The position numbers and the translations under genes are program-made. The notes beneath the pieces were generated by a model. The model searched no databases, was not told where the DNA came from, and was given only the letters and a program-made list of their open reading frames with translations. A stretch of DNA of 64,000 nucleotides, taken from the NCBI GenBank assembly GCA_963703315.1, contig OY969811.1:1568001-1632000 (forward strand), written 5' to 3'. Source of the stretch: an uncultured cyanobacterium. Its GTDB lineage: Bacteria; Cyanobacteriota; Cyanobacteriia; Pseudanabaenales; Pseudanabaenaceae. How positions within the stretch are numbered: position 1 is the first letter of the stretch; each line of letters opens with the position of its first letter. This document shows positions 19,614 through 37,848 of this stretch, piece after piece.

Positions 19614-19859
19614 ATGGAAACTGTTAATATTCATCAGGCTAAAACCAATCTTTCTCGTCTTTTGTCAAGGGTAGAACTTGGAGAAGAGATTGTTATTTCT
19701 AACCGAGGTGTTCCCGTTGCTAAGCTAGTTCCATTTTGTACTTCTGCTAATCGCAAAGCTAGTTTAGGAATAGATCGGGGACGCTTTATCGTGCCTGAAG
19801 ACTTTAACGCTCCTTTGCCAGAAGAGATTTTGTCAGCATTTGAGGGGTGTGAAGGGTGA
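19614..19859 (+). CDS. Phd/YefM family antitoxin
   Basis: VNIHQAKTNLSRLL...GEEIVI...PVAKLVP. Confidence 0.92.
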   Translation: METVNIHQAKTNLSRLLSRVELGEEIVISNRGVPVAKLVPFCTSANRKASLGIDRGRFIVPEDFNAPLPEEILSAFEGCEG

Positions 19860-20257
19860 AACTTTTAATGGATACTCATTGCTGGTTGTGGTGGTTTGCC
19901 CAGCCAGAGCGTTTGAGTGAGGAGGCGATCGCTTGCATAGTCGATGAAGCTAATGAAGTGTGGTTTTCAGTGGCAAGTGTCTGGGAAATGGGTATCAAAG
20001 TGGCAATCGGCAAGTTGCCATTACCAGAACCAGTAGATAGCTATGTATCAAGTCGCATGGTGCAATTGGGGGCGCGATCGCTCGATATTTCAGTCAGTCA
20101 TGCCTTACAAGCTGCGGCTTTGCCTTTACATCATCGCGATCCATTCGACAGAATGTTGATTGCACAGGCTCAACTAGAAAATATGACGATTGTGACGGCT
20201 GATAATATGTTTAGTCAATATCAAGACGTTTCTATTCTTTGGGCAGCAAATTCATAA
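19856..20257 (+). CDS. vapC: VapC family PIN toxin
   Basis: LLMDTH, SVWE, HRDPFDRMLIAQA; GTGA overlap with the antitoxin. Confidence 0.92.
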   Translation: MKLLMDTHCWLWWFAQPERLSEEAIACIVDEANEVWFSVASVWEMGIKVAIGKLPLPEPVDSYVSSRMVQLGARSLDISVSHALQAAALPLHHRDPFDRMLIAQAQLENMTIVTADNMFSQYQDVSILWAANS

Positions 20258-21283: not shown

Positions 21284-21856
21284 TGGATTAACTTCCTGCT
21301 CTGTCCAGTTGCCTTGCTCGTCCCGTATATATATCCAGCGATTTTGAGGTGTACCGCGCAGTTCAAGGCGATCGACTTCGACAGGTTCTAGCAATAGCAA
21401 GCAAAAATAAGGCAAAGGTTGATCGGCACTCGGTGGAGCGACTTCAGGAAAATCAATACGTGGTTCTCTGGGATGCGCCCATGCAAATTGCAGCCACGCA
21501 GGTTCTGATAATGCTTGCCATGCAGACTTTCGGGCAGATTGCAACTCTAAATCTGGACATTCCTGATCAATTAACGTGAGTTTGCCTAAAATCCGAAATT
21601 GCGATCGCGTTTTTGGAAAATACCAACTTATTTCCGCCCAAGGATTTGCTGCAATTTGAGCCGCTTTTTGACTACGAATATCCGTAACGATTTTGAGACA
21701 ATCTTGGTAGCGATCGCTATTTTCTAAAAATCCTCTAAATACAACTGTGCGATTGCGAGGACGATGATCTAAACCAATTGTGGCTAATTGAAAAAACCTT
21801 GCTTCGGGTTGATTACGGTGCTGATGTAAACTTCGAGCTAGATGCGATCGCCACAT
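21281..21856 (-). CDS. FMN-binding pyridoxamine 5'-phosphate oxidase-related protein
   Basis: QLATI, PRNRTVVFRGF, TDIRSQK, QFRI, C-terminal VNP. Confidence 0.88.
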   Translation of the reverse strand: MWRSHLARSLHQHRNQPEARFFQLATIGLDHRPRNRTVVFRGFLENSDRYQDCLKIVTDIRSQKAAQIAANPWAEISWYFPKTRSQFRILGKLTLIDQECPDLELQSARKSAWQALSEPAWLQFAWAHPREPRIDFPEVAPPSADQPLPYFCLLLLEPVEVDRLELRGTPQNRWIYIRDEQGNWTEQEVNP

Positions 21857-21912
21857 AAAACCATTTAGAATAGAACTGTGCTTAGCACAGTTCTATTCTA
21901 AATGGTTTTATG
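21854..21912. repeat. 59-bp perfect palindrome forming the entire divergent intergenic region, including both start codons
   Basis: cataaaaccatttagaatagaactgtgc-tta-gcacagttctattctaaatggttttatg. Confidence 0.92.
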
Positions 21913-23961
21913 GCGAATTTGTGGATTGAGGGTGGTAGTCGTAGTGGCAAGACTGAACGAGTGGTTCAGCAGTTTTGTGACTGGGCAGAAACTGACTTTG
22001 CCAAAAAAGCTAATCCTCAAGCAGCTTCCCAAAAGGTTTTAGTTTTAACCGTTGATTCTGAGCAAAGACGCAAACTGAGCGATCACCTGATTGTCACCAC
22101 GCATGGGCGCTATCCTGTCACTGCGGTTACACCCTTGAGCTTTTTTCGCGATGAAGTGCGTTTATTTTGGACATTATTAGTCAAAAACCTTAACTTAAAG
22201 GCTCAGTTTCCTCTGCTTCTAAGAGTTGAAAATGAGCAGGAACTCACCAATCAAGTCTGGAAAGATCGCCTTGAAATGGGAACTCTGCAAAGGTCGGGAA
22301 TTGGACAGGAAAGGCTGGTACGCAGATTGTTAGATTTATTTTTGTTAGCCGCCTATAGTGGTCGAGAGATTACCGAAATTCCGACAATTCTCAATGCAGG
22401 TATTGAAACTAATCCCTTAGAATCTGCTCTTGATAATGGAGAACAAAATTCTCTATCCACAAGTTCCGTATTAGAGCAATGGCAAGAAATCGGGGAAGCT
22501 TTGCAAGAATGGCGGGACTATTGCTGGGAAAGAGGCTTGCTGACCTATGGCATTATTACCGATTTATTTGCCCATCATTTACTTCCAAATCTTCAATATC
22601 AACGAAGACTCAAGCAACGATTTCAATATATGATCGTTGACCGTGCCGATGAAATGCCAGCGATCACTTGTGATTTGTGCAAGTTTCTATTACAAAATGG
22701 CGCTCAAGGAATGGTTACGTTTAATCCTGATGGATCGGCAAGACTAGGACTAGGTGGTGATCCTGAATATTGGCAAGAAATTAAATCTGAATGTGAAGTA
22801 ATCAAGTTACCCCATGCCCAAAACACGTTAGGCGATGAAATTGGAGCATCAGTTTTAGAAGTTGTCCGCGAACCAATTTTACAGTTTATCGAACCCTATC
22901 CACAGGTTTATGCGATTGAATCAGTTTCTCGCGCCAAACTGTTCCGTAATGTTGCGGAAACGATCGCCTCAGCGATCGCTTCAGGTGAGATAAAAGCCAA
23001 CGAAATCGCCATTATTGCCCCCGGATTAGATAACATCGCCAAATATGCGATCGCCGAAATTCTCCGTAAAAAAGAAATCAATGTTAATCCCCTTAACGAT
23101 CAACGCCCCTTATCCTATTCTGCCCAAGTGCGATCGCTGCTTACTCTGATCACATTGGTCTATCCCAATCTTGGTAAATTAGTAAGTCGCGATCACATTG
23201 CCGAAATGTTGGTTGTGCTGATCGAGGCGATCGATCCAGTTCGGGCAGGAATGCTAGCTGACTATTGCTTTGCACCACATCCAGAGCATCCACAACTACT
23301 AGCATCAGAAACCTATAACCAATGGAATCGCCTCGGTTATGAAGCAACACAAGCCTATGCTCAATTACGAAAATGGATTGAACAACAATCACCTAAAGAC
23401 ACACCACTTCTATTCATAGATCGGGCAATTCAAGCCTTTTTTAAACCCCGTAAACTCAGCTATGAAAGTACTTCCACCTTACAATCATTAATCGAAACTG
23501 CTCAATATTATTGGCAGCTTGGCTATCGCCTCGATCAAGAAGATCCCATTATTCTCGAAAATTTTATTCAACTGATTCGACAAGGCACTGTCACTGCTAA
23601 TCCTTATGCCCCCAATCTCCCCCAAGATAGCGTTGTCCTTGCTACGATCTTCCAATACCGCATGGCAAGACTTTCCCACCGTTGGCAATTTTGGCTAGAT
23701 GCTAGTTCTGACCTTTGGCTACAGGGTGGAGCCGCATCTCTATTTGGTGCGCCACTCTTTCTCAAAGGTTGGCATGGAAAACTATGGACGACTGAGGATC
23801 AAAGCAAAGCCGATATGCAACGCTTAGAGAAGTTAATCAGAGATTTGCTCGATCGCACTGATGAGCGTCTATATCTCTGTCACAGCGAACTTAGTACTAA
23901 TGGTCAAATCCAAAATGGAGTCTTGAGTCCATTAATTGAGGTTAGTAGCACAAATTCATGA
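21910..23961 (+). CDS. Cyanobacterial P-loop protein, degenerate UvrD/AddB-like
   Basis: N-terminal EGGSRSGKT Walker A-like motif, IVDRADE Walker B-like motif, EIAIIAP. Confidence 0.7.
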   Translation: MANLWIEGGSRSGKTERVVQQFCDWAETDFAKKANPQAASQKVLVLTVDSEQRRKLSDHLIVTTHGRYPVTAVTPLSFFRDEVRLFWTLLVKNLNLKAQFPLLLRVENEQELTNQVWKDRLEMGTLQRSGIGQERLVRRLLDLFLLAAYSGREITEIPTILNAGIETNPLESALDNGEQNSLSTSSVLEQWQEIGEALQEWRDYCWERGLLTYGIITDLFAHHLLPNLQYQRRLKQRFQYMIVDRADEMPAITCDLCKFLLQNGAQGMVTFNPDGSARLGLGGDPEYWQEIKSECEVIKLPHAQNTLGDEIGASVLEVVREPILQFIEPYPQVYAIESVSRAKLFRNVAETIASAIASGEIKANEIAIIAPGLDNIAKYAIAEILRKKEINVNPLNDQRPLSYSAQVRSLLTLITLVYPNLGKLVSRDHIAEMLVVLIEAIDPVRAGMLADYCFAPHPEHPQLLASETYNQWNRLGYEATQAYAQLRKWIEQQSPKDTPLLFIDRAIQAFFKPRKLSYESTSTLQSLIETAQYYWQLGYRLDQEDPIILENFIQLIRQGTVTANPYAPNLPQDSVVLATIFQYRMARLSHRWQFWLDASSDLWLQGGAASLFGAPLFLKGWHGKLWTTEDQSKADMQRLEKLIRDLLDRTDERLYLCHSELSTNGQIQNGVLSPLIEVSSTNS

Positions 23962-23967
23962 AAAAAG

Positions 23968-24198
23968 ATGCATTTTGGAAGCCCGAATGCTCGCTATTTA
24001 AAAAAGGCGATTAAGTCAGCCGATCGGGTTGTTGTTGCTTGGGGAAATAACGGGAAGTTAATGCAACGCGATCGCCTTGTTTTAGAGTTGCTATCTAAAC
24101 AAAATATTCAACCTCACTGTTTAGGAATCACAAAATCAGGCTATTCGCGTCATTCGCTATACATTCTGTGTAGTAAGCAATTGAGGGTTTGCAGGTGA
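23968..24198 (+). pseudogene. C-terminal fragment of a DUF1643-family protein
   Basis: VVVAWGNNG and CLGITKSG-SRHSLY resemble the DUF1643 C-terminus; N-terminal half missing. Confidence 0.65.
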
Positions 24199-24287
24199 TT
24201 TGCTAAACGAAACTCACTCCATGCTTCATAACACAAAATTTCATTTATACTAGGGTTTGGGATCAATATGTATCGTAGTAATCTAGT

Positions 24288-26402
24288 ATGCATTTCAAAT
24301 TTTCTCCAAGTATCCTTAGCAGACTAGGAGAAGAACTAATTCCTAATCCTGATCAGGGTATTTTGGAGCTAGTCAAAAACTCTTATGATGCAGATGCTAC
24401 AGTGTGTGAGATCGAGTTACTAAATACCGAGGAGATCGGTGGCAGTATTGTGATCTCCGATAACGGTATGGGGATGGATCTTGAAACTCTTCAAAGTGGC
24501 TGGTTAGTTATTGGAAAATCTGAAAAAGAGGCGGCTAGTGATCGCACATCTCTTAATAGATTGAGAGTAGGATCTAAAGGTTTAGGGAGGCTTGCCGCAT
24601 TACGACTAGGAACTCATGTAGAACTCACCACACGACCAAAAAGTGAATCAAACATAGAATATTCCGTTAGTATGTGCTGGGATGATTTTAACAATGTTGA
24701 TTCTGTGGAAAAAGTAATTTTTTCTCCCACAACTAAGCCAACAGAGTGTAGACATGGAACAAAAATTGTAGTTAGTAATTTGAACGTAAAAATAGGTAAG
24801 CGAGAGGTTAATAGACTTGCAAGAGAGTTATTACTACTAGCCGATCCTTTTGACACTAACACATCGTTTCGACCTAAGTTAATTGGAACTGGATTTACGG
24901 ACTTAGAAAAGCAAGTCAATGAACAATTTTTTGAAGATGCCGAATTCTTTCTTAAAGCATCTCTTGACAAGAATGGATATGCTTCTGCTCAGTTAGTGGA
25001 TTGGAAAGGTTCTACTGTCGCTATAGCTTCACATTCTGATATTAGTAAATATCGACAACAATTAGATATAAATGAGGGATTACCAGATGGAACAAATTTA
25101 TCTATGGATAGTCCTTATCAAAACTCTGTACCTGCTAACTTTGAACTGTGGATTTTTCAACTTAATCCACAAAGCTTTTCCACTAAAAATCGTGAAGATA
25201 ATTCTCGGCAAATCCGCAGATGGTTGGCAGAAGTTGGTGGTGTACATCTGTATCATCGAGGATTGAGAGTTGCTCCTTATGGAGATAAGGGTGATGATTG
25301 GCTAAAAATCAATTTGTCGAGATCTCGGAATCCTCAAGTCCGCCCTTCAACAAGCACCGTCATTGGTAGGGTTATTGCAGAAGATGCAAATAGTCTCTTG
25401 TTACAAAAAACAAATCGTCTGGGATTTCTAGAAAATGAAACTTTTCTTAATCTGCAACAATTTGCAATGAATACACTTGAATGGATTGCAAATTTTCGTT
25501 TGCAAACAGTAGAAGTAAAACAGGAACAGGTAAAAAGACAAATAAAACCTAAGATTGCTGAAGCTAAGAAAAACATAGAAGATATTATTACTACTTATAT
25601 TCCAGAACCAAAACCTAGAGAAAAAACACTATTAGCAGTAGAAGATTATGACAAGGTCAGAGAAGAAGAGGTGGAAGTCTTAAATGTTGAACTACAACTA
25701 TATCGTAGCTTAGCAACAGCAGGGACTACTGCTGCTATCTTTGCTCATGAATCTGGCAGAGAAATTAACACCTTAAAAGGTCAAGTTGGTATTTTAAATG
25801 CAAAAATGCAGAAATATGTAGAAACCGAAATATATCTCAAGTATTTTGCAAAAACCTTTACAAATATTCAAAAACTAGCTGGTTCGGTTCAAGGCTTTGC
25901 TAAATATCCAATTTATCTATTAAAAAAAGAAAAGCGATCACAAGGAAAAGTTGAAATACATCAAGTGATAAATGATGTAATCAGCTTGTTTGATCCTTTT
26001 CTCGAAAGTTCTAATACTACTATTGAGTTAGATAGAGTAAATGCTGAACTTAATTTGCGAGGAAGTACGGCTCTCGTAGAGGCAATTTTAATTAATCTAA
26101 TTACTAATGCAATTAATGCTTTTAATACTAAAGATGCACCTATTCAAAATCGCAAGATTGTAATCCGAACTGAATCAAATGAAGACTTTATTTGGCTAAG
26201 AGTTATGGATAATGCTTTGGGTATTCAAGGGCTTACAATAGATGAAATCTGGCTGGCTGGCAAAACCACCACGAGATCGGGTACTGGGTTAGGATTGAAA
26301 ATAGCAAAAGACTCAGTTATAGATTTGGGAGGACAAATTAGTGCCGTTGCCAATGGTCAACTAGGTGGGGCAGAGTTTATCGTTCAGTTACCTTTAAAGT
26401 AG
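24288..26402 (+). CDS. MORC/MutL-like GHKL ATPase fused to a C-terminal histidine kinase
   Basis: N-terminal ELVKNSYDA, DNGMGM, GSKGLGRLA, GTKI; C-terminal H-box FAHE, N-box NLITNAINA, DNALG, GTGLGL. Confidence 0.88.
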   Translation: MHFKFSPSILSRLGEELIPNPDQGILELVKNSYDADATVCEIELLNTEEIGGSIVISDNGMGMDLETLQSGWLVIGKSEKEAASDRTSLNRLRVGSKGLGRLAALRLGTHVELTTRPKSESNIEYSVSMCWDDFNNVDSVEKVIFSPTTKPTECRHGTKIVVSNLNVKIGKREVNRLARELLLLADPFDTNTSFRPKLIGTGFTDLEKQVNEQFFEDAEFFLKASLDKNGYASAQLVDWKGSTVAIASHSDISKYRQQLDINEGLPDGTNLSMDSPYQNSVPANFELWIFQLNPQSFSTKNREDNSRQIRRWLAEVGGVHLYHRGLRVAPYGDKGDDWLKINLSRSRNPQVRPSTSTVIGRVIAEDANSLLLQKTNRLGFLENETFLNLQQFAMNTLEWIANFRLQTVEVKQEQVKRQIKPKIAEAKKNIEDIITTYIPEPKPREKTLLAVEDYDKVREEEVEVLNVELQLYRSLATAGTTAAIFAHESGREINTLKGQVGILNAKMQKYVETEIYLKYFAKTFTNIQKLAGSVQGFAKYPIYLLKKEKRSQGKVEIHQVINDVISLFDPFLESSNTTIELDRVNAELNLRGSTALVEAILINLITNAINAFNTKDAPIQNRKIVIRTESNEDFIWLRVMDNALGIQGLTIDEIWLAGKTTTRSGTGLGLKIAKDSVIDLGGQISAVANGQLGGAEFIVQLPLK

Positions 26403-26412
26403 GATAATTTAT

Positions 26413-27132
26413 ATGCAAATTCAGCAAATTCGTAAAGTCGCGATCGTAGATGACACACAGAGTGCTAGGGAAGAGCTAGCTGAAACTCTTGAAATAGTCG
26501 GGTTTGAACCTTTTATAGTTGAAAATTCTTGGACTGAAATTAATTCTTTAGTAGAACATATCCAAGCAAATTCTCAGGCGGTTATTTGCGATCATCGGCT
26601 TTCTGATAGTGGGTTAGCTTCATTTACAGGGGCTGAATTAATGCCTTCACTTTATAAAAACAAATTTCCATTTCTCCTAATAACTCAATACACTGATCAG
26701 GATATTAATGATTCTATTCGTAAATATAGAGATAAAATTCCTATCGTCTTGAAACGAGAGGAGCTAATTGATTTATATGATATAAATACTATTGGTAATA
26801 AAATCAAAAAAGGACTTGAAACTTGTTCTCAAGAGTTTCAAAATATCATGTCGTCAACACGCCGACCTCATAGAACGTTTATCCATATCGTTAACATTAA
26901 TAATGGTCTTGTAGAGGCATTTGTTCCAAGCTGGAATCCTTACCATGCAGTGAGCTTCCCACTATCACTAATATCAGAAGAGTTTTCCTCTAATATAGAG
27001 TCTCGTCTTAAACAAAAAGAAGATACTTGGTTAATTGCTTGCGTTAATACAGGAGCAGAAAAAGCAGATGACCTTTACTTTACAAAATTTGAAGTCGCAC
27101 CAGAGTTAGATGAAAATGATGGACTTGCCTAG
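26413..27132 (+). CDS. Response regulator receiver protein with an uncharacterised C-terminal domain
   Basis: VAIVDD, ICDH (putative phospho-Asp), LIT; 10 bp after the kinase stop. Confidence 0.8.
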   Translation: MQIQQIRKVAIVDDTQSAREELAETLEIVGFEPFIVENSWTEINSLVEHIQANSQAVICDHRLSDSGLASFTGAELMPSLYKNKFPFLLITQYTDQDINDSIRKYRDKIPIVLKREELIDLYDINTIGNKIKKGLETCSQEFQNIMSSTRRPHRTFIHIVNINNGLVEAFVPSWNPYHAVSFPLSLISEEFSSNIESRLKQKEDTWLIACVNTGAEKADDLYFTKFEVAPELDENDGLA

Positions 27133-28108
27133 ATTAATAGTTTTAGATGTCGCTCATGGTAACTGCTCAATTCTTCAGGATACCGAAGGTACTATTGTCA
27201 TTGACTGCGCTCATGGTGATACGTTGATTGAAACCCTTCGGCATCTTAAGATTTCGCAAGTTGATCGCATCATGATTTCTCATGCCGATCAAGATCACTT
27301 CAAGGGATTTATCGATTTACTTGCAGATGAATCAATAACCGTAAAATATGTTCATCTCAATCCTGACCCAAAGAAAGAAACTCTGGTTTTTAGAGCTTTA
27401 CGTCGAGCCATTGGAGAGGCAAAGGAACGGAATGGTACAACTCATGAATTACTACATACAGGAATGATGGGTAAACTAGATATTGGAGAAGTTAGGATTG
27501 AAATTCTCTCTCCAAGTATAGATATCATGGGCTATTCAGGTGGTCAAGATTTACAAGGAAGAAACTTAACATCTAATTCTGTGTCAGCAGTTATTCGGCT
27601 TGTTTATAAATCTCGCGGAGTAGCACTTCTTGCAGGAGATATTGATCAGGTAGGTTTAGATAATTTACTCAATAATAGATATGAAGTTGAATCTGACATT
27701 CTTGTTTTCCCTCATCATGGAGGTAATACAGGTACAGGTAAAAGCACAGAAAACCATGAATTTACTATCAAATTGTGCCAACAAGTAAAACCAAATTTAG
27801 TGATCTTCTCAACTGGTAGAAGGGATAAAGAACCACATTATCCTCGCCAAGAAATTGTACAATCTTTACTTGCTATACTTCCCGATGTACATATTATGTG
27901 TACTCAGCTTGCTAAAACTTGCTCTGCCGAGATATTAACAATTCCTGCTCACTTAAACAAACTTCCATCAAGAGGGCAAGACGATAATCACTGCTGTGGT
28001 GGAACAGTTGTCATCAATTTAAGTGAAACTGAAACAACTTATGCTCCAAACAGTGATCATCGTCAATTTGTCAAAGAAAATATAGTTTCTGCTTTGTGTA
28101 TGCGTTGA
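27110..28108 (+). CDS. ComEC/Rec2-like metallo-beta-lactamase-fold hydrolase (putative nuclease)
   Basis: DVAHGN, ID, SHADQDH, LLAGD, FPHHG, HYP; overlaps the receiver gene. Confidence 0.88.
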   Translation: MKMMDLPRLIVLDVAHGNCSILQDTEGTIVIDCAHGDTLIETLRHLKISQVDRIMISHADQDHFKGFIDLLADESITVKYVHLNPDPKKETLVFRALRRAIGEAKERNGTTHELLHTGMMGKLDIGEVRIEILSPSIDIMGYSGGQDLQGRNLTSNSVSAVIRLVYKSRGVALLAGDIDQVGLDNLLNNRYEVESDILVFPHHGGNTGTGKSTENHEFTIKLCQQVKPNLVIFSTGRRDKEPHYPRQEIVQSLLAILPDVHIMCTQLAKTCSAEILTIPAHLNKLPSRGQDDNHCCGGTVVINLSETETTYAPNSDHRQFVKENIVSALCMR

Positions 28109-28131
28109 GAACAGCGATCGCATTTAAGAGC

Positions 28132-28308
28132 AACGGCAAACCCTCCCTAGAATGAATTATGGAACGCGATCGCCTCACCCGCGACAAACATAAAACATAG
28201 CGGAATTACCAACAATCCCAACGACCAATCAAGCGATCGCGCTACATCCTCGACCTCGTTAAGTGCGAGTCGGTTAAAATCGTGAATACCTTACCACCAT
28301 TACAGGAG
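28132..28308 (+). pseudogene. Repeat copy 1: degraded 3' end of a type ISP restriction-modification gene
   Basis: Across frames translates NGKPSLE*IMER-RLTRDK / SGITNNPND / RYILDLVK / ESVKIVNTLPPL. Confidence 0.75.
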
Positions 28309-28320
28309 AACAGACACACC

Positions 28321-28542
28321 ATGCTTAAACCGATCACCCTTCAAGTCGAAGCCCCCATCGCCGAGGCATATCAAAATATAACCCCAGAAAATCGTCAAGC
28401 CTTGCAAACACTTGTCAGCATCTTTTTACAATGTATTTCCCCACCAACCCCACTACAAAAAGTAGTCCAAGAGATTCGTTTAGAAGCACAACAAAATGGA
28501 CTTACTCCCGAAATCTTAGAGGAAATCCTCAAGGATGACTAA
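28321..28542 (+). CDS. Putative antitoxin
   Basis: Small ORF ending GLTPEILEEIL, overlapping the downstream PIN gene; ATG at 28321. Confidence 0.75.
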   Translation: MLKPITLQVEAPIAEAYQNITPENRQALQTLVSIFLQCISPPTPLQKVVQEIRLEAQQNGLTPEILEEILKDD

Positions 28543-28966
28543 ACTAAGATTAGTAATCGATACCAACATCTTGATCAGTGGCTTAATGTCTGTAAATTCT
28601 TTGCCCCAGCAGGTTTTCGACTATGCCACATCTCAAGCAATACTCCTGATATCAGATGAAGTTCAATCAGAAATAGAAAACGTCATCAGCCGCCCAAAAC
28701 TCCAAAAATACATCACCTTAGAAAGACGTACTACATTTTTAAGTGAGTTAAGTCAGCAGGTCGAAAGAGTCACAATCAACCAGCAAATTCGAGCCTGTCG
28801 AGATCCCAAAGATGACAAGTTCCTAGAGTTAGCTGTCTGCGGTGAAGCTAACTACATCATTACAGGCGATGCCGATCTTTTAGATTTACATCCATTCCAA
28901 AATATTTCTATCCTTAAAGCCGCTAGTTTTTTAACTGCGATCGCGCTACATCCTCGACCTCGTTAA
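28535..28966 (+). CDS. PIN-family toxin
   Basis: VIDTN, CRDPKDDKFLELA, ITGDADLL; C-terminus runs into repeat copy 2. Confidence 0.9.
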   Translation: MTKLRLVIDTNILISGLMSVNSLPQQVFDYATSQAILLISDEVQSEIENVISRPKLQKYITLERRTTFLSELSQQVERVTINQQIRACRDPKDDKFLELAVCGEANYIITGDADLLDLHPFQNISILKAASFLTAIALHPRPR

Positions 28967-29037
28967 GTGCGATCGCGAGTGTCAGCATCGAGTCAGTTAA
29001 AATAATTAATAGCTTGCCCCCATTGCAGAAAAAGTAA
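28937..29037 (+). repeat. Repeat copy 2: type ISP 3'-end remnant
   Basis: gcgatcgcgctacatcctcgacctcgttaagtgcgatcgc...; encodes RYILDLVK / IASVSIESVKIINSLPPLQKK*. Confidence 0.85.
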
Positions 29038-29080
29038 ACTCAACCTTGCATAATCTAGAATTTATTTGAGGTAAACCATT

Positions 29081-29395
29081 ATGTTGCAACTAGAAATCAA
29101 ATCCGATGCACCCGATCTCGAAATCGTCCAAAACCTAGTCAGAGCCGCGATTGATGCAGAAATCAAAAACTTACAGCGATCGCTAGATAAAACTAATAAA
29201 TTTTTAAAAGAATTTGAAACCAAATATCAAATCTCCTCCGACCTTTTTCTCAGTGATTGGACTGCTGAAGACCTCAAAGGTGGTGACGAAGAATATGTGA
29301 GTTGGGCAGGTGAAGCCAAAATCAAGAAGAGACTAACTAGTTCTCTACAAAAGTTACAAGCGATCGAATATGTTACTCAACAACTATCAATCTAA
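29081..29395 (+). CDS. Putative antitoxin-like small protein
   Basis: FETKYQISS...EEYVSWAGE pattern; overlaps the downstream toxin-like remnant. Confidence 0.6.
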   Translation: MLQLEIKSDAPDLEIVQNLVRAAIDAEIKNLQRSLDKTNKFLKEFETKYQISSDLFLSDWTAEDLKGGDEEYVSWAGEAKIKKRLTSSLQKLQAIEYVTQQLSI

Positions 29396-29559
29396 CATCA
29401 TCTCCATTATTCAAAAATATGTAAATGATGGATGGATTCTATCCTTTAACTTTTCTGTTGATCCTAGATCATAAACATATCAAAGATAAAATCATTTCCT
29501 CTGAAATTCCAGATATTGAGCAAGTGATCCTAGAAATTATTACCGATTATTTAAGTTAA
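29370..29559 (+). pseudogene. Internally deleted DUF6516/TumE-like toxin gene
   Basis: MLLNNYQS...FSVDPRS* joined out of frame to HKHIKDKIISSEIPDIEQVILEI. Confidence 0.55.
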
Positions 29560-29564
29560 ATCCC

Positions 29565-29698
29565 TTATAGAAAGCGATCGCCTCACCCGTGATAAAGATC
29601 GCACTACATCCTCGACCTCGTTAAGTGCGATCGTCCGCGTAAGTGTCGAGTCCGTTAAAATTGTGAATAGCTTGCCACCATTGAATGAACGCATATAA
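29565..29698 (+). repeat. Repeat copy 3: type ISP 3'-end remnant
   Basis: Encodes DRLTRDKD / YILDLVK / IVRVSVESVKIVNSLPPLNERI*. Confidence 0.85.
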
Positions 29699-29771
29699 TC
29701 GCCATGATATAGAGCAAACTTATAGTTACGCTATACTAGCTAATGATTCCAACTTTCGCAGGATTGGGAAA

Positions 29772-30029
29772 ATGAACATTGCTTTAAAGCCAGAACAGGA
29801 AAATTTTATTCTCGCCAAACTTCAAGATGGCAAGTATCAGAGTGTTGACTCTCTCCTAGCTTTTGCATTTCAACTACTAGAAGAACATGAAGCCAAACAA
29901 CAAAAGTTGAGCGAACTAAGAAAAAAAATTGCTGAAGGAATGGAGCAAATCAAACAAGGCGATGTCGTTGATGGTGAATTAGTATTTCAACAATTACAGG
30001 TCAAACTAGAGCAGATGAGTCAAAAATAA
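29772..30029 (+). CDS. parD: ParD-like ribbon-helix-helix antitoxin
   Basis: MNIALKPEQENFI...GKYQS...LRKKIAEG; ATG at 29772. Confidence 0.82.
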   Translation: MNIALKPEQENFILAKLQDGKYQSVDSLLAFAFQLLEEHEAKQQKLSELRKKIAEGMEQIKQGDVVDGELVFQQLQVKLEQMSQK

Positions 30030-30041
30030 AAAAGATTCATT

Positions 30042-30353
30042 ATGTCTAGCTACTCCTTCTCAAAAATAGCCATCAAAGATCTAGACGATATCTGCACATT
30101 TATTGGACAGATCAATCCAAAAGCTGCGAGTAATCTATTTGATAATATTCGTCAAAAATGTAAGCTCGTTGCTAGTTTCCCCAACATGGGCAAAAACTAC
30201 ACTTGGATTGCTGCCAATTTGCGTGGTTTCACAATAGATGATTACATCGTCTTTTACTATCCTCGTAACGATGGCATTGATATCATTCGAGTGATATCTG
30301 GGAAACGAGATCTTGAGTCCATATTTGAAGAATTTACTGATGAAAATAATTAG
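30042..30353 (+). CDS. parE: ParE/RelE family toxin
   Basis: AIKDLDDI, FPNMG, YIVFY, IIRVISGKRD. Confidence 0.9.
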   Translation: MSSYSFSKIAIKDLDDICTFIGQINPKAASNLFDNIRQKCKLVASFPNMGKNYTWIAANLRGFTIDDYIVFYYPRNDGIDIIRVISGKRDLESIFEEFTDENN

Positions 30354-30363
30354 TATCTTTTTA

Positions 30364-30534
30364 CGATGCCGATCTTTTAGATTTACATCCATTTCAAAAT
30401 ATTTCTATCATTAAAGCCGCTAGTTTTTTAACTGTGATCGCGCTACATTCTTGACCTCGTTAAGTGCGATCGCGCGAGTAAGTGTGGAGTCCGTTAAAAT
30501 TGTGAATAGCTTACTACCATTGAATGAGAGATAG
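30364..30534 (+). repeat. Duplicated PIN-gene 3' end plus repeat copy 4 (type ISP 3'-end remnant)
   Basis: 30364-30479 is near-identical to 28867-28980; then encodes IARVSVESVKIVNSLLPLNER*. Confidence 0.85.
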
Positions 30535-30608
30535 AAAATTTTGCTATAATTCACCATAATGGCACTTCATGAATTGCCCCTTACCATTACTAAAAACATC
30601 AACCCACC

Positions 30609-30767
30609 ATGAAAGCCTCTTTAATCAAGATCAAAAAACCTAGCAAAGAAGACCTCCTTGCTTTCCGCCGTTCTTCTCAAAAAATGGCTGAATTATTAAA
30701 AGCTCACGGCATTAGCGAAGACGACATCATTGCCGAATTTAACGCTCTGCGTAAACAAGCAAGATGA
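30609..30767 (+). CDS. Small putative antitoxin (52 aa, below the ORF-track cutoff)
   Basis: MKASLIKIKKPSKEDLLAFRRSSQKMAELLKAHGISEDDIIAEFNALRKQAR, directly before a PIN remnant. Confidence 0.6.
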   Translation: MKASLIKIKKPSKEDLLAFRRSSQKMAELLKAHGISEDDIIAEFNALRKQAR

Positions 30768-30927
30768 AGCGCAAAGACGCATTAAAGCAAGAGATCCTAA
30801 CGATTGGGAAGTGGTTGCCTTAGCCATGCACTTTGATTGTCCAATTTGGACAGAAGACAAAGACTTTTTTGGAATTGGCATCGCCACATGGAACAGCCAA
30901 AACGTAGAAATTTATCTTATGCAATGA
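30764..30927 (+). pseudogene. C-terminal half of a PIN-domain toxin
   Basis: RDPNDWEVVALA...IWTEDKDFFG; the N-terminal DTN/DAN motif is missing. Confidence 0.7.
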
Positions 30928-30978
30928 TTAGTAATCGATACCAATCACTGAGATTAGCGATCGCTATTACAAAAACAA

Positions 30979-31455
30979 CTAACCTTCAGGCAAAAAATCC
31001 TCATCTAGCGTTTGCTCAGGAGTAAAGGGAGACTCAATTGGGAAAGTGGCGATCGCTAATCCTGTTTCGGCACTAGCTAACTTCCTTGCACTTAGATAGC
31101 ACTCAGCAAACTCCTGCAAAAAATATCGCTTCAAGCTAGGACTATATTTAAAGGCTTTGTGCAATCTGAGGCGATGTTCGATAATCGTATAACGCCAACT
31201 ATTAGAGCGCTTAGCAGGCTGATATTTATATTTGAGAAGATGCATCAGCAAAACTTCTAAATTACTTTCGATCGCTTGTTTTTGACTGCCACCCATTCCT
31301 TCAAGTTCTGTAACTAAATTCTCAATATCTATCCCTGCAAAATTTTGCGATCGCAACAAATCAACTGCTTGATCTAACCAAAGAGCATAGTCTTGCTCAT
31401 ACAACGCTCCATGATTAGCCGCATCTGTAACTGTATTAGAGAAAGTAACAGTCAT
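30979..31455 (-). CDS. DUF29 domain protein
   Basis: LYEQDYALW, HLLKYKYQ, SNSW, SPSLK, ETGL. Confidence 0.9.
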   Translation of the reverse strand: MTVTFSNTVTDAANHGALYEQDYALWLDQAVDLLRSQNFAGIDIENLVTELEGMGGSQKQAIESNLEVLLMHLLKYKYQPAKRSNSWRYTIIEHRLRLHKAFKYSPSLKRYFLQEFAECYLSARKLASAETGLAIATFPIESPFTPEQTLDEDFLPEG

Positions 31456-31511
31456 ATATATGGTTTAGGCAAATCTTACTGAAAGTATAGCAAATACAAA
31501 TCCCTGTGATT

Positions 31512-32471
31512 CTACGCAAGTGATAGTTCACCCACTGCTTCTAATCGGCTATATTTGCCCACAGAAAGAAAAGACTCTTCTAAAGTCTGAGCAACGGTAG
31601 GATTAATCCATCCTAATTGTTTTAATAAATGGATAGAAGCCGCAATTTTGGCTCTTTTAGATCCATCCATCACCTTGATTGCTAACCCCAAACCTTCACC
31701 AATGCGCCCAATACATTGCACACCTTCTGCACCCGATTTACTGACAATTTCGCCATTAGTGAGACGCATTAGTTCTGTATCAAACTGACCATCTCCAGAA
31801 ACCATTTCAGGATGACGAGTCATAGCGCGAGTGATTCTCTCTAGATGCAATTGATCATGGTTAGAAAGTAACGCATAGAGTCGTGCTAGTTGGCTAATTT
31901 CTAATAGATACGTTGGCACACCGCAATCATCATGGGCGCAGATAAACTCAGCAGCAGGCATATGCAAGAGATCTGCCATTGTACTCAAAATCAGTTTCTG
32001 GACAGGGTGATGGCGATCCATATAAGAAGAAATTTGCCATCCTTGCTGTTTGCAGATGGCGATCATCCCTGCGTGTTTACCAGAACAATTGTGCTGAAGT
32101 GGACTTTTTTGACACTCTGGTACTGGACATTGCAAGGCACTTGGCTCAACGTCACACCGCCAGAGAATGCTAAAAACTTGTCTTGCTTGGGCGATCGTGC
32201 CTTGGTGCGAACCGCAGATAATGGCGAGGTCAGTTTCTGAAAGGTTAAATCGCTGCTGTGCGCCAGATATCGAGATGGGTAACGCTTGAATTGGTTTGAG
32301 ACAAGAACGGGCAAAAGTAGTTGTTTGCGGATCTCCTGCGGCAGAGAGAATCCTTCCCCGCGTATCAACGACCGCCGCTTGGCAAGAGTGGATAGACTCG
32401 ACTATTCCCTCACGTAGTAATTGCACGGTAATTTTGTTAGCGGAAAAACGATTGCGCTTGCCAAGGTTCAT
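31512..32471 (-). CDS. L-asparaginase II family protein
   Basis: RSCLKPIQA, HNCSGKHAG, DDCGVP, SKSGAEG. Confidence 0.9.
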   Translation of the reverse strand: MNLGKRNRFSANKITVQLLREGIVESIHSCQAAVVDTRGRILSAAGDPQTTTFARSCLKPIQALPISISGAQQRFNLSETDLAIICGSHQGTIAQARQVFSILWRCDVEPSALQCPVPECQKSPLQHNCSGKHAGMIAICKQQGWQISSYMDRHHPVQKLILSTMADLLHMPAAEFICAHDDCGVPTYLLEISQLARLYALLSNHDQLHLERITRAMTRHPEMVSGDGQFDTELMRLTNGEIVSKSGAEGVQCIGRIGEGLGLAIKVMDGSKRAKIAASIHLLKQLGWINPTVAQTLEESFLSVGKYSRLEAVGELSLA

Positions 32472-32561
32472 AAGTTACTGCTTTAGGATCGCCATCATAA
32501 TCCTACGGTAAGGTTAAGATATGTGTGAAGATATGTAACAATTATAGATATAAGTACATAT

Positions 32562-33464
32562 ATGGTTTTAGCAAGTACAGAAGCGATCGCTGGACAATAT
32601 TGGCTTTGGCGCGATCAAAAAATTTATTTTGTCAAAGCGGGGAATAATTCTCAACGCCCCCCATTACTTTTAGTGCATGGTTTTGGTGCATCTACCGATC
32701 ATTGGCGCAAGAATATTGCGGAACTCAGCCAAGAGTTTGAAGTATATGCGATCGATTTGTTAGGCTTTGGGCGATCGCAAAAACCCGCATGGCAATATAG
32801 CGGCGATCTGTGGCGCAATCAACTCCATGATTTTATTAGCGAAAAAATTCAACGCCCGACCATAATCGCTGGCAACTCCCTCGGTGGTTACGCCTCGTTA
32901 TGCGTTGCGGCTGAGCATCCTCAATCAGTGGCAGGGATTATCCTGCTCAATAGTGCAGGTCCCTTCACCGATACTAATCCTCTTGGCGCAAAAAAGGTAA
33001 ATCCCATCCAAAAAGCAATTAGTAAGACTCTTCAAGGAGTTTTGCGTCAACCTGGGGCAAACCAATTACTGTTTGCCTTTGTGCGTCAAAAATCACGCAT
33101 TCGTAGTACTTTGAAAAAAGTATATCTAGATCAATCTGCTGTCACTGAGCAATTAGTTGAAGATATTTATCGTCCTTCTTGCGATGAAGGGGCTGCCCAA
33201 GTTTTTGCATCAGTTTTTAGCACCCCTCAAGGCAAAAAAGTAGATGAATTACTAGGAGCGATGACCTGTCCCTTATTAGTAATTTGGGGTGAAGGTGATC
33301 CGTGGATGAATGCCCGTGCGAGGGGCGCGAAATTTCGAGAGTTCTATGCTTCTCTCACCGAACATTACATTCAATCTGGGCATTGTCCTCACGATGAAAG
33401 CCCAGAGGCGGTCAATGCACTAATCAGATCTTGGTACGCATCAACCTTCCTAGTGAATAATTAG
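32562..33464 (+). CDS. Alpha/beta hydrolase
   Basis: HGFGAS, DLLGFG, GNSLGG, GHCPHDE. Confidence 0.92.
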   Translation: MVLASTEAIAGQYWLWRDQKIYFVKAGNNSQRPPLLLVHGFGASTDHWRKNIAELSQEFEVYAIDLLGFGRSQKPAWQYSGDLWRNQLHDFISEKIQRPTIIAGNSLGGYASLCVAAEHPQSVAGIILLNSAGPFTDTNPLGAKKVNPIQKAISKTLQGVLRQPGANQLLFAFVRQKSRIRSTLKKVYLDQSAVTEQLVEDIYRPSCDEGAAQVFASVFSTPQGKKVDELLGAMTCPLLVIWGEGDPWMNARARGAKFREFYASLTEHYIQSGHCPHDESPEAVNALIRSWYASTFLVNN

Positions 33465-33516
33465 AGTTGTGCGGCAAAGCCGCACAACTCTAATTATTTG
33501 ATTTATTAAGAAATAA

Positions 33517-36564: not shown

Positions 36565-36668
36565 TAAGTAGCTCAGCATAGTTAAAACTCAAAACCAGAG
36601 CTTGCGCCGCCTGCTACGCAGGCGGCACAAGCTTCTAGGTTTTAAGTTTACTTATGCCTAGCTACTTA
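36565..36668. repeat. Palindromic MITE/REPIN-like element, left flank of the sulfurtransferase gene
   Basis: Terminal inverted repeats taagtagct...agctactta; near-identical direct copy at 37743-37848. Confidence 0.88.
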
Positions 36669-37742: not shown

Positions 37743-37848
37743 TAAGTAGCTCTCAGCATAGTTAAAACCCAAAACCAGAGCTTGTGCCGCCCGCGTAGCG
37801 GGCGGCACAAGCTTCTAGGTTTTAAGTTTACTTATGCCTAGCTACTTA
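37743..37848. repeat. Palindromic MITE/REPIN-like element, right flank of the sulfurtransferase gene
   Basis: Direct copy of 36565-36668. Confidence 0.88.

What the first reader, a model, noticed from the sequence alone, without database searches (positions are those of the whole stretch)
28132..30944. Integron-like array of TA cassettes separated by decayed 3' ends of a type ISP RM gene
Seen: four direct copies of an approximately 90-170-bp repeat (28132, 28937, 29565, 30434), each followed by a different two-gene module (antitoxin-PIN, antitoxin-DUF6516-like, parDE, antitoxin-PIN fragment). The repeat translates to NGK-LE(W)IMER...DK-SGITN-PND...RYILDLVK-IVRVSVESVKIVNSLPPL, which I recognise as resembling the extreme C-terminus of LlaGI/LlaBIII-type ISP enzymes. 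Distal parts differ largely by synonymous or conservative changes, and copies 2-4 have their own stop codons, suggesting different once-functional alleles. The core is a HIP1-bounded 40-mer (GCGATCGC-gctacatcctcgacctcgttaagt-GCGATCGC) whose HIP1 sites break the reading frame. No integrase is present. Inference: the RM gene tail acts as a recombination anchor that stacks downstream TA cargo from different strains, an integrase-free, HIP1-assisted cassette array.
Basis: partly seen in the sequence, partly recalled or inferred. Interest (0 to 1): 0.82.

Follow-up and report, generated by a model that had tools for sequence, protein, structure and literature searches.

The report
Dead gene tails shuffling toxin-antitoxin cassettes
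In this cyanobacterium and many relatives, worn-out ends of a restriction-enzyme gene sit between small toxin-antitoxin gene pairs and appear to serve as shared swap points, so the pairs are stacked, reordered and traded between species without any dedicated integrase.

Summary
The four repeats are real. They are the last 33-60 codons of a type ISP restriction-modification gene: intact genes in relatives end in this sequence, match LlaGI/LlaBIII, and are followed by the same TA pairs. I mapped 100 copies in 60 loci of 38 genomes. Cassette number and order vary, including reciprocal orders. The distal part of each copy travels with the downstream TA; the core is linked to neither side. This fits displacement of ISP alleles followed by RecA-type exchange inside the repeat. 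No attC was found in 61 loci, and no integron integrase in this genome. One correction: the copies are chimeras. Their distal ends derive from different alleles, but 69 of 75 decayed copies share a frame-breaking HIP1-type change absent from 18 intact-type tails. Decayed tails hold 7.0 HIP1/kb, against 0.3 in intact tails and 1.8 genome-wide. Two of the four TA pairs here have broken toxins. The array ends a defence island that is absent at this site in six relatives. It works like Vibrio T6SS/Rhs displacement arrays. This scan reported ISP-tail stacks before on other DNA (e1-6827275, e1-6827270). A role for HIP1 is inferred, not shown.

The parts
23944..24198 (+). DUF1643 3' fragment, left end of the island and probable second homology anchor
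   Evidence: Pfam PF07799; upstream of the first repeat in 21 of 38 loci with at least 8 kb of upstream DNA
24288..28108 (+). Variable defence slot, here HATPase/histidine kinase (704 aa), receiver protein (239 aa) and metallo-beta-lactamase-fold protein (332 aa)
   Evidence: same trio between DUF1643 and the repeat at another chromosomal site in G013 (L041); other relatives hold Gabija, Lamassu, type IIG RM or NACHT/STAND genes here
28131..28309 (+). Repeat 1: decayed type ISP 3' end, about 60 codons, two exact HIP1 (28166, 28233), internal deletion, stop lost
28321..28966 (+). Cassette A: 73-aa putative antitoxin + PIN_3 toxin (143 aa, stop inside repeat 2); reading frames intact
   Evidence: PF13470, TIGR00305; the antitoxin has no family hit and its role is inferred from position
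28937..29037 (+). Repeat 2: ISP tail with the HIP1-bounded 40-mer (28937-28976) and its own stop
29081..29559 (+). Cassette B: intact 104-aa putative antitoxin + TumE/DUF6516 toxin remnant (internal deletion, premature stop)
   Evidence: intact relatives hit PF20126 TumE; window copy matches positions 1-71 and 259-351 of 351
29561..29698 (+). Repeat 3: ISP tail with internal deletion; its 3' end holds the -35 of the best sigma-70-like match (29672-29699, 11 of 12)
29772..30353 (+). Cassette C: ParD + ParE, reading frames intact
   Evidence: PF03693, PF05016, TIGR02606
30364..30433 (+). 69-nt remnant of the cassette A PIN 3' end, carrying the same junction into repeat 4
30434..30534 (+). Repeat 4: ISP tail with one exact HIP1 (30466) and its own stop
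30609..30927 (+). Cassette D: putative antitoxin (52 aa; 57 in relatives) + 3' fragment of a PIN_2 toxin
   Evidence: PF10130; matches positions 259-420 of 420 of the intact relative
30979..31455 (-). DUF29 gene closing the island; whole or partial copies recur in related arrays

Best explanation
A two-stage, integrase-free cassette system. Stage 1 (rare): TA operons first sat directly behind intact type ISP genes. Incoming DNA carrying another ISP allele, or another defence module, with its own TA recombined by homology on the left and by microhomology inside the resident ISP 3' end on the right. That left new module - old ISP tail - old TA. Stage 2 (common): once tails lie between TA pairs, ordinary homologous recombination inside the shared 100-190 bp, by natural transformation or unequal crossing-over, adds, drops and permutes cassettes within and between species. 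With a DUF1643 fragment as left anchor it also swaps whole defence systems. The dead tail gained up to four HIP1-type sites, which probably favour its uptake or recombination. Shown: ISP origin, intact precursors, combinatorial and reciprocal orders, linkage pattern, excess identity between species, HIP1 gain, no attC or IntI. Inferred: the order of events, RecA/transformation as the agent, any effect of HIP1, and activity of the TA pairs.
For: Tail of an intact relative matches LlaBIII/LlaGI at 1e-26, and the whole protein at E=0. Fifteen copies are still continuous with ISP sequence (5 in frames over 1500 aa) and are followed by cassettes A3, B1, C1, D3, F2, G2, H2, other 1. Two-step intermediates ISP-TA1-tail-TA2 occur in L077, L078 and L083, and independently in two other families (L123, L117). 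Left junctions are specific to the upstream module. The same junction is followed by different cassettes: after A: B3 C3 D4 E6; after B: A3 C3 D1 F1; after F24: five kinds. Reciprocal orders: A>E in 4 loci vs E>A in 2; A>B in 2 vs B>A in 1 complete and 2 partial; C>E in 2 vs E>C in 1. In 51 decayed copies from 23 genomes the distal three bins are linked to the downstream cassette (permutation p=0.001 each) and the core to neither side. Cassettes A, B and C are a median 93-94% identical to relatives' copies, against 80-83% for flanking genes and 78-81% for B copies not next to a repeat. ComEC and DprA are present. Homologous HIP1 sites raise integration in Synechococcus PCC 7002 (10.1101/2024.09.10.611283).
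Against: No excision, circle or rearrangement was seen in this strain: run X1 matches the window without joints. The permutation test ignores relatedness. Without B-type copies, linkage starts later and is weaker (bins from position 212, p 0.009 and 0.002). No upstream linkage was detected in the core (p 0.11). Arrays also share other remnants (PIN 3' end, DUF29, F13 pieces) joined by microhomology, so the tail is not the only anchor. Half the loci (30 of 60) have one copy only. Two of the four toxins here are broken, which fits decay as well as function. How the island reaches new chromosomal sites is unexplained.
Confidence: 0.7

Rival explanations
1. Passive graveyard: one long ancestral ISP-TA cluster with internal duplications eroded by differential deletion. 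The repeats are scars kept by hitch-hiking with addictive TA pairs or their promoters, and are not used for exchange.
For: Many broken toxins and microhomology deletions; the best promoter match has its -35 in repeat 3; TA loss and toxin pseudogenisation are common in chromosomes (abstract of PMC13617665).
Against: Reciprocal orders cannot come from one linear order by deletion alone; distal linkage with an unlinked core; cassette identity far above the flanks; promoter-like matches no more frequent than in shuffles (8 vs 7.4 +/- 2.5).
Confidence: 0.15
2. The HIP1-bounded core is a true site for a site-specific recombinase acting in trans (integron integrase, another tyrosine recombinase or a HIP1-specific activity), as in tandem accretion or CALINs.
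For: Integron integrases over cut-off in 23 of 48 genus genomes; the decayed core folds as a 9-14 bp hairpin (z -2.9 and -2.3 for copies 2 and 3, top strand) that the intact tail lacks (z +0.6); HIP1 site-specific recombination is cited for PCC 7002 in PMC4390886.
Against: No attC-like site in 61 array loci, while the same scan finds attC in 3 of 18 IntI loci; no repeat in those 18. No IntI and no serine resolvase in this genome, and its two tyrosine-recombinase loci lie 0.16 and about 1.8 Mb away on the chromosome. Left boundaries range over about 175 nt. No sharp crossover point. Bottom-strand folds and copy 4 are no better than shuffles.
Confidence: 0.1
3. Assembly artefact: identical 36-mers in copies 1 and 2 caused mis-ordering.
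For: Contigs of run X1 break at the shared 36-mer, and none spans the whole stretch.
Against: The genome is one contig; X1 covers 28943-31600 in one piece with no difference; the same junctions recur in many other genomes.
Confidence: 0.03

Closest known systems
Displacement arrays of T6SS effector-immunity modules in Vibrio cholerae, and Rhs C-terminal displacement (Kirchberger 2017, PMC5361080; passages read)
   Same: Arrays proposed to form by homology-facilitated illegitimate recombination with one anchored end, leaving 3' ends of displaced genes, then moved by homologous recombination; no integrase evidence.
   Different: There the retained cargo is the cognate immunity gene of the displaced gene, and order records history. 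Here the anchor is an RM gene tail, the cargo is unrelated TA pairs, the parent gene is usually gone, orders are reciprocal, and the scar has gained HIP1 sites.
Insertion of RM genes with long target duplication (Furuta 2010, PMC2853133; passages read)
   Same: Insertions bounded by direct repeats over 30 bp without mobile-element genes, mostly in competent species, with an example in Microcystis.
   Different: There RM genes are the insert and the repeat is a target site. Here the RM gene's own end is the repeat, and up to four copies are stacked.
Integrons and CALINs (definition recalled; abstract of PMC12614218 read)
   Same: Tandem one- or two-gene cassettes, rich in TA pairs, variable in order, each bounded by a short repeat.
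   Different: No attC structure, no IntI at the arrays, variable left boundaries, protein-coding origin of the repeat.
Type ISP enzymes LlaGI / LlaBIII (PDB 5ffj, 4xqk)
   Same: The repeat is the extreme C-terminus of this family; intact relatives have the nuclease, helicase, coupler, methylase and specificity domains.
   Different: The window holds only non-coding tails, with no enzyme.

Membership tests
Type ISP RM gene (origin of the repeat) | Repeat is the 3' end of a single-chain nuclease-helicase-coupler-methylase-TRD gene | tested here: met
   L056, 1694 aa: Mrr_cat_2, ResIII, Helicase_C, ISP_coupler, N6_Mtase, Type_ISP_C; LlaGI/LlaBIII E=0, tail 1e-26; window copies align to its tail
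Type ISP RM gene (functional, in the window) | Intact open reading frame | tested here: not met
   Only frameshifted tails of 33-60 codons
Integron / CALIN | attC sites (complementary core and inverse core on a folding strand) | tested here: not met
   My own scan, not IntegronFinder: 0 of 61 array loci; positive in 3 of 18 IntI loci
Integron / CALIN | Integron integrase linked or in the genome | tested here: not met
   None over cut-off in this genome; present in 23 of 48 genus genomes, but no repeat in the 18 IntI loci fetched
Integron / CALIN | One fixed crossover point | tested here: not met
   Upstream cassette not linked to the core; downstream linkage starts at different points for different cassettes
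Displacement array (T6SS/Rhs type) | 3' remnants of displaced alleles stay attached to their original downstream genes | tested here: met
   Distal repeat linked to the downstream TA; intact ISP-TA precursors and ISP-TA1-tail-TA2 intermediates
Displacement array (T6SS/Rhs type) | Retained cargo is the cognate immunity gene of the displaced gene | tested here: not met
   Cargo is type II TA pairs
Displacement array (T6SS/Rhs type) | Formed by homology-facilitated illegitimate recombination | not testable with these tools
   Microhomology at junctions is consistent; needs transformation experiments
Tandem accretion of integrative elements at a gene 3' end (recalled) | Element-borne integrase and a constant att crossover | tested here: not met
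   No integrase in the island; left boundaries vary over about 175 nt
Type II TA systems | Toxicity neutralised by the upstream antitoxin | not testable with these tools
   Family matches only; two of four toxins are broken in the window

The most novel reading that the evidence does not exclude
The dead ISP tail has been domesticated into a dedicated, enzyme-free recombination site. HIP1 sites written into it by multi-base changes make it a preferred uptake and crossover signal in natural transformation. Together with the DUF1643 anchor, it forms a genus-wide system that shuffles TA cassettes and swaps whole anti-phage systems between species and chromosomal sites: an integron-like system run by host recombination and HIP1. 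It would also be a dated natural record of how HIP1 sites are created.
Probability: 0.3. Interest if true: 0.8.

Novelty: new variant of a known kind. Interest (0 to 1): 0.58.

Why it matters
It shows how defence islands and TA clusters can be built and reshuffled between species with no mobile-element enzyme, using a gene scar as shared homology. It also offers a direct handle on the long-open question of what HIP1 does and how it arises: the same 190 bp exists as a HIP1-free coding allele and as a dead allele with up to four HIP1-type sites. The two can be compared as recombination anchors in a transformation assay.

Tried and rejected
Integron/CALIN: rejected. Known RNA family: only one chance-level Rfam match in 23000-33000. 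Dispersed repeat or MITE: rejected. Hairpin as a conserved structure: top strands of copies 2 and 3 fold better than shuffles; copies 1 and 4 and the bottom strands do not, and two HIP1 palindromes pair by construction; my stem-pair count was too crude to use. Promoter inside the tail as the reason for retention: inconclusive, 8 sites vs 7.4 expected. Target-site duplication at the island's ends: none seen, but relatives are only about 80% identical. Circles or excision: contigs only; X1 shows no joints and may be the source sample. Joints in X3 (for example 29033 to 28312, 29688 to 30535, 28935 to 29666) come from other strains at 85% likeness and show alternative neighbours, not activity. 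Phylum survey with a 70-aa tail: 48 of 401 genomes match; it misses frameshifted tails, so it cannot show that arrays are rare outside the genus. Literature searches returned no paper describing ISP-tail TA arrays; supplements were not read. Look-ups of earlier findings by place and by sequence returned nothing.
Full report
Observation. The four direct copies are present at the stated places. A profile built from related copies finds only these four in the genome, plus a weak hit in a separate, split type ISP gene 1.2 Mb away. The genome is HIP1-rich (8189 sites in 4.57 Mb). Relatives carry photosystem genes beside the arrays, so the host is a cyanobacterium. Cassettes A (putative antitoxin + PIN_3) and C (ParD + ParE) are intact. 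B has an internally deleted TumE toxin and D keeps only the 3' part of a PIN_2 toxin. Both exact HIP1 ends of the 40-mer occur only in copy 2. A 69-nt remnant of the A toxin gene precedes copy 4.

Origin of the repeat. In relatives the same sequence ends intact genes, for example L056 (1694 aa) with all type ISP domains. That protein matches LlaGI and LlaBIII at E=0, and its last 100 residues match at 1e-26. The window copies align to this tail. Fifteen of 100 copies are still continuous with ISP sequence, five of them in frames over 1500 aa. They are followed directly by cassettes A, B, C, D, F, G or H.

Distribution. The repeat is in 35 of 47 other genomes of the genus. I fetched the loci of the hits, though not every weak one, and mapped 100 copies in 60 loci of 38 genomes. 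Thirty loci have one copy, 23 have two, 4 have three and 3 have four (eight labels corrected by hand). The left junction of a copy is specific to the module upstream, yet the same junction is followed by different cassettes. Reciprocal orders occur: A then E (L043, L054, L067, L092) and E then A (L041, L071); A then B (window, L064) and B then A (L077; leader only in L040, L055); C then E (L044, L070) and E then C (L043). One ancestral order plus deletions cannot give this. Two other cyanobacterial families show the simple form: ISP gene, small module, second tail copy (L123, 58 nt at 93%; L117, 275 nt at 91%).

Where exchange happens. I used the 51 decayed copies from 23 genomes with assignable neighbours and near-full core and distal parts; the other 49 were left out. 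Pairs sharing the downstream cassette differ 3.5-7.2 points less in the three distal bins (p=0.001, 1000 permutations) and not in the two core bins. No bin is linked to the upstream module (lowest p 0.056). Without B-type copies, linkage begins only in the last two bins. Crossovers are therefore spread over the core and beyond, as expected for homologous recombination. The test ignores kinship and overstates significance. Cassettes A, B and C are a median 92.8, 94.0 and 93.5% identical to relatives' copies (13, 18 and 8 genomes or loci). The two flanking genes give 80 and 83%, and 269 non-island blocks give 82.6%. The D antitoxin is intermediate at 84.8%, and B copies not next to a repeat are 78-81%. 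This points to recent transfer between species.

HIP1. Intact-type tails hold 1 exact HIP1 in 3479 nt; decayed copies hold 64 in 9110 nt (7.0/kb; genome 1.79/kb). Four positions have been converted, each by two or three changes, two of them with a one-base indel. At one position 69 of 75 decayed copies and 0 of 18 intact-type copies carry the change. The copies are thus chimeras of a shared dead core and allele-specific distal ends. Neutral mutation of the tail at the observed 14.7% divergence gives two or more such motifs in 42 of 20000 trials, whereas 11 of 12 near-full-length decayed copies have two to four; these copies are related and count as few events. Of 24 hand-listed junction types, 8 lie at the two left HIP1 positions, 7 if one without the HIP1 state is dropped (p 0.015 and 0.044). 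This is modest, and HIP1 could have arisen after the junction. Homologous HIP1 sites raise integration up to 7-fold, and over 100-fold when methylated, in Synechococcus PCC 7002 (10.1101/2024.09.10.611283; abstract and parts 1 and 3 of 4 read). A one-step ratchet model for HIP1 gain is in PMC4390886 (passages and part 1 of section 3.4 read). PMC13756078 (abstract only) proposes HIP1 as an uptake sequence.

Context. The array closes a 7.5-kb island: DUF1643 fragment, kinase-receiver-MBL trio, array, DUF29. The two flanking genes are adjacent in six relatives (G007, G008, G014, G015, G026, G030) among 15 junctions fetched; the other nine have different neighbours. Related islands have 21 different right flanks among 49 mappable loci. 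A DUF1643 gene or fragment lies upstream in 21 of 38 loci with enough sequence. The slot between it and the first repeat holds Gabija, Lamassu, type IIG RM, DzbA-like, NucC-like, caspase-STAND or NACHT genes in different genomes. How the island reaches new sites is unexplained.

Recombinases. This genome has no integron integrase over cut-off and no serine resolvase, and its two tyrosine-recombinase loci are far from the array. ComEC and DprA are present. Integron integrases occur in 23 of 48 genus genomes. Eighteen of those loci, fetched from 38 listed matches, hold no repeat. My attC scan finds sites in 3 of them and in 0 of 61 array loci.

Reads. Contigs of X1 match the window but break at the 36-mer shared by copies 1 and 2. 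X1 may be the source sample and shows no joints. X3 shows alternative neighbours from other strains. No circle or transcript was shown.

Mechanism. Most likely (0.7): displacement of ISP alleles by one-sided homologous insertion created tail-TA units, and host homologous recombination inside the tails now shuffles them, probably favoured by HIP1. Passive erosion (0.15) and a site-specific recombinase in trans (0.1) fit worse.

Comparison. [quoted passage not shown] It is a member of neither, and it is not an integron or CALIN (definitions recalled; PMC12614218 abstract only). PMC13617665 (abstract only) documents TA clustering and erosion. Eight literature searches found no description of ISP-tail TA arrays; the library is incomplete and supplements were not read. 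Earlier notes of this scan describe ISP-tail stacks in sponge symbionts and an smc-tail array. They gave me the first two papers as leads and the term displacement array; they are not independent evidence. New here are the TA-only cargo, reciprocal shuffling with mapped linkage, the two-anchor defence slot and the HIP1 gain. Verdict: new variant of a known kind, interest 0.58.

Noticed in passing
G000:C1:2831558-2835324 (L072:5558-10474): A second, distant type ISP-like gene is split by an inserted DUF6883 + DUF4926 pair and followed by HicA/HicB-like and nucleotidyltransferase modules, so TA genes gather at another ISP gene in the same genome.
   Followed up: partly
Aligned orthologous DNA outside the islands: At 1516 HIP1 sites the orthologue is identical in 76%, and three differences (5.1%) are more common than two (3.6%). 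170 control octamers fall off steadily (35, 18, 11%). This hints that HIP1 is gained or lost in multi-base jumps; the control set is small and the sites are not independent.
   Followed up: partly
window 24288-28108: HATPase/histidine kinase + receiver + MBL-fold trio in the defence slot, with weak matches to restriction enzyme, Lamassu A and retron MBL models; also in G013 at another site. A candidate uncharacterised defence system.
   Followed up: partly
L033:9358-13096; L052:5714-9447: A MazG_C + 5-hmdU kinase helical domain + IrrE-like peptidase + HTH module fills the same slot on the opposite strand in two genomes.
   Followed up: no
L133, L134, L139: True integrons with canonical attC sites exist in the genus, but 15 of 18 fetched IntI loci showed no attC in my scan.
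   Followed up: no
L032, L036, L039, L053, L077, L078, L083, L084, L093: psbA copies flank 9 islands, some on both sides, and hisS flanks 10; repeated psbA genes may provide homology for island insertion.
   Followed up: no
window 36565-36668 and 37752-37848: Two 97-nt palindromic REP-like repeats (93% alike) flank a sulfurtransferase-like gene; perfect hairpins also lie at 21854-21912 and 33456-33498.
   Followed up: no
window 19614-20257: Another antitoxin-PIN-like pair outside the array (named from the sequence only).
   Followed up: no
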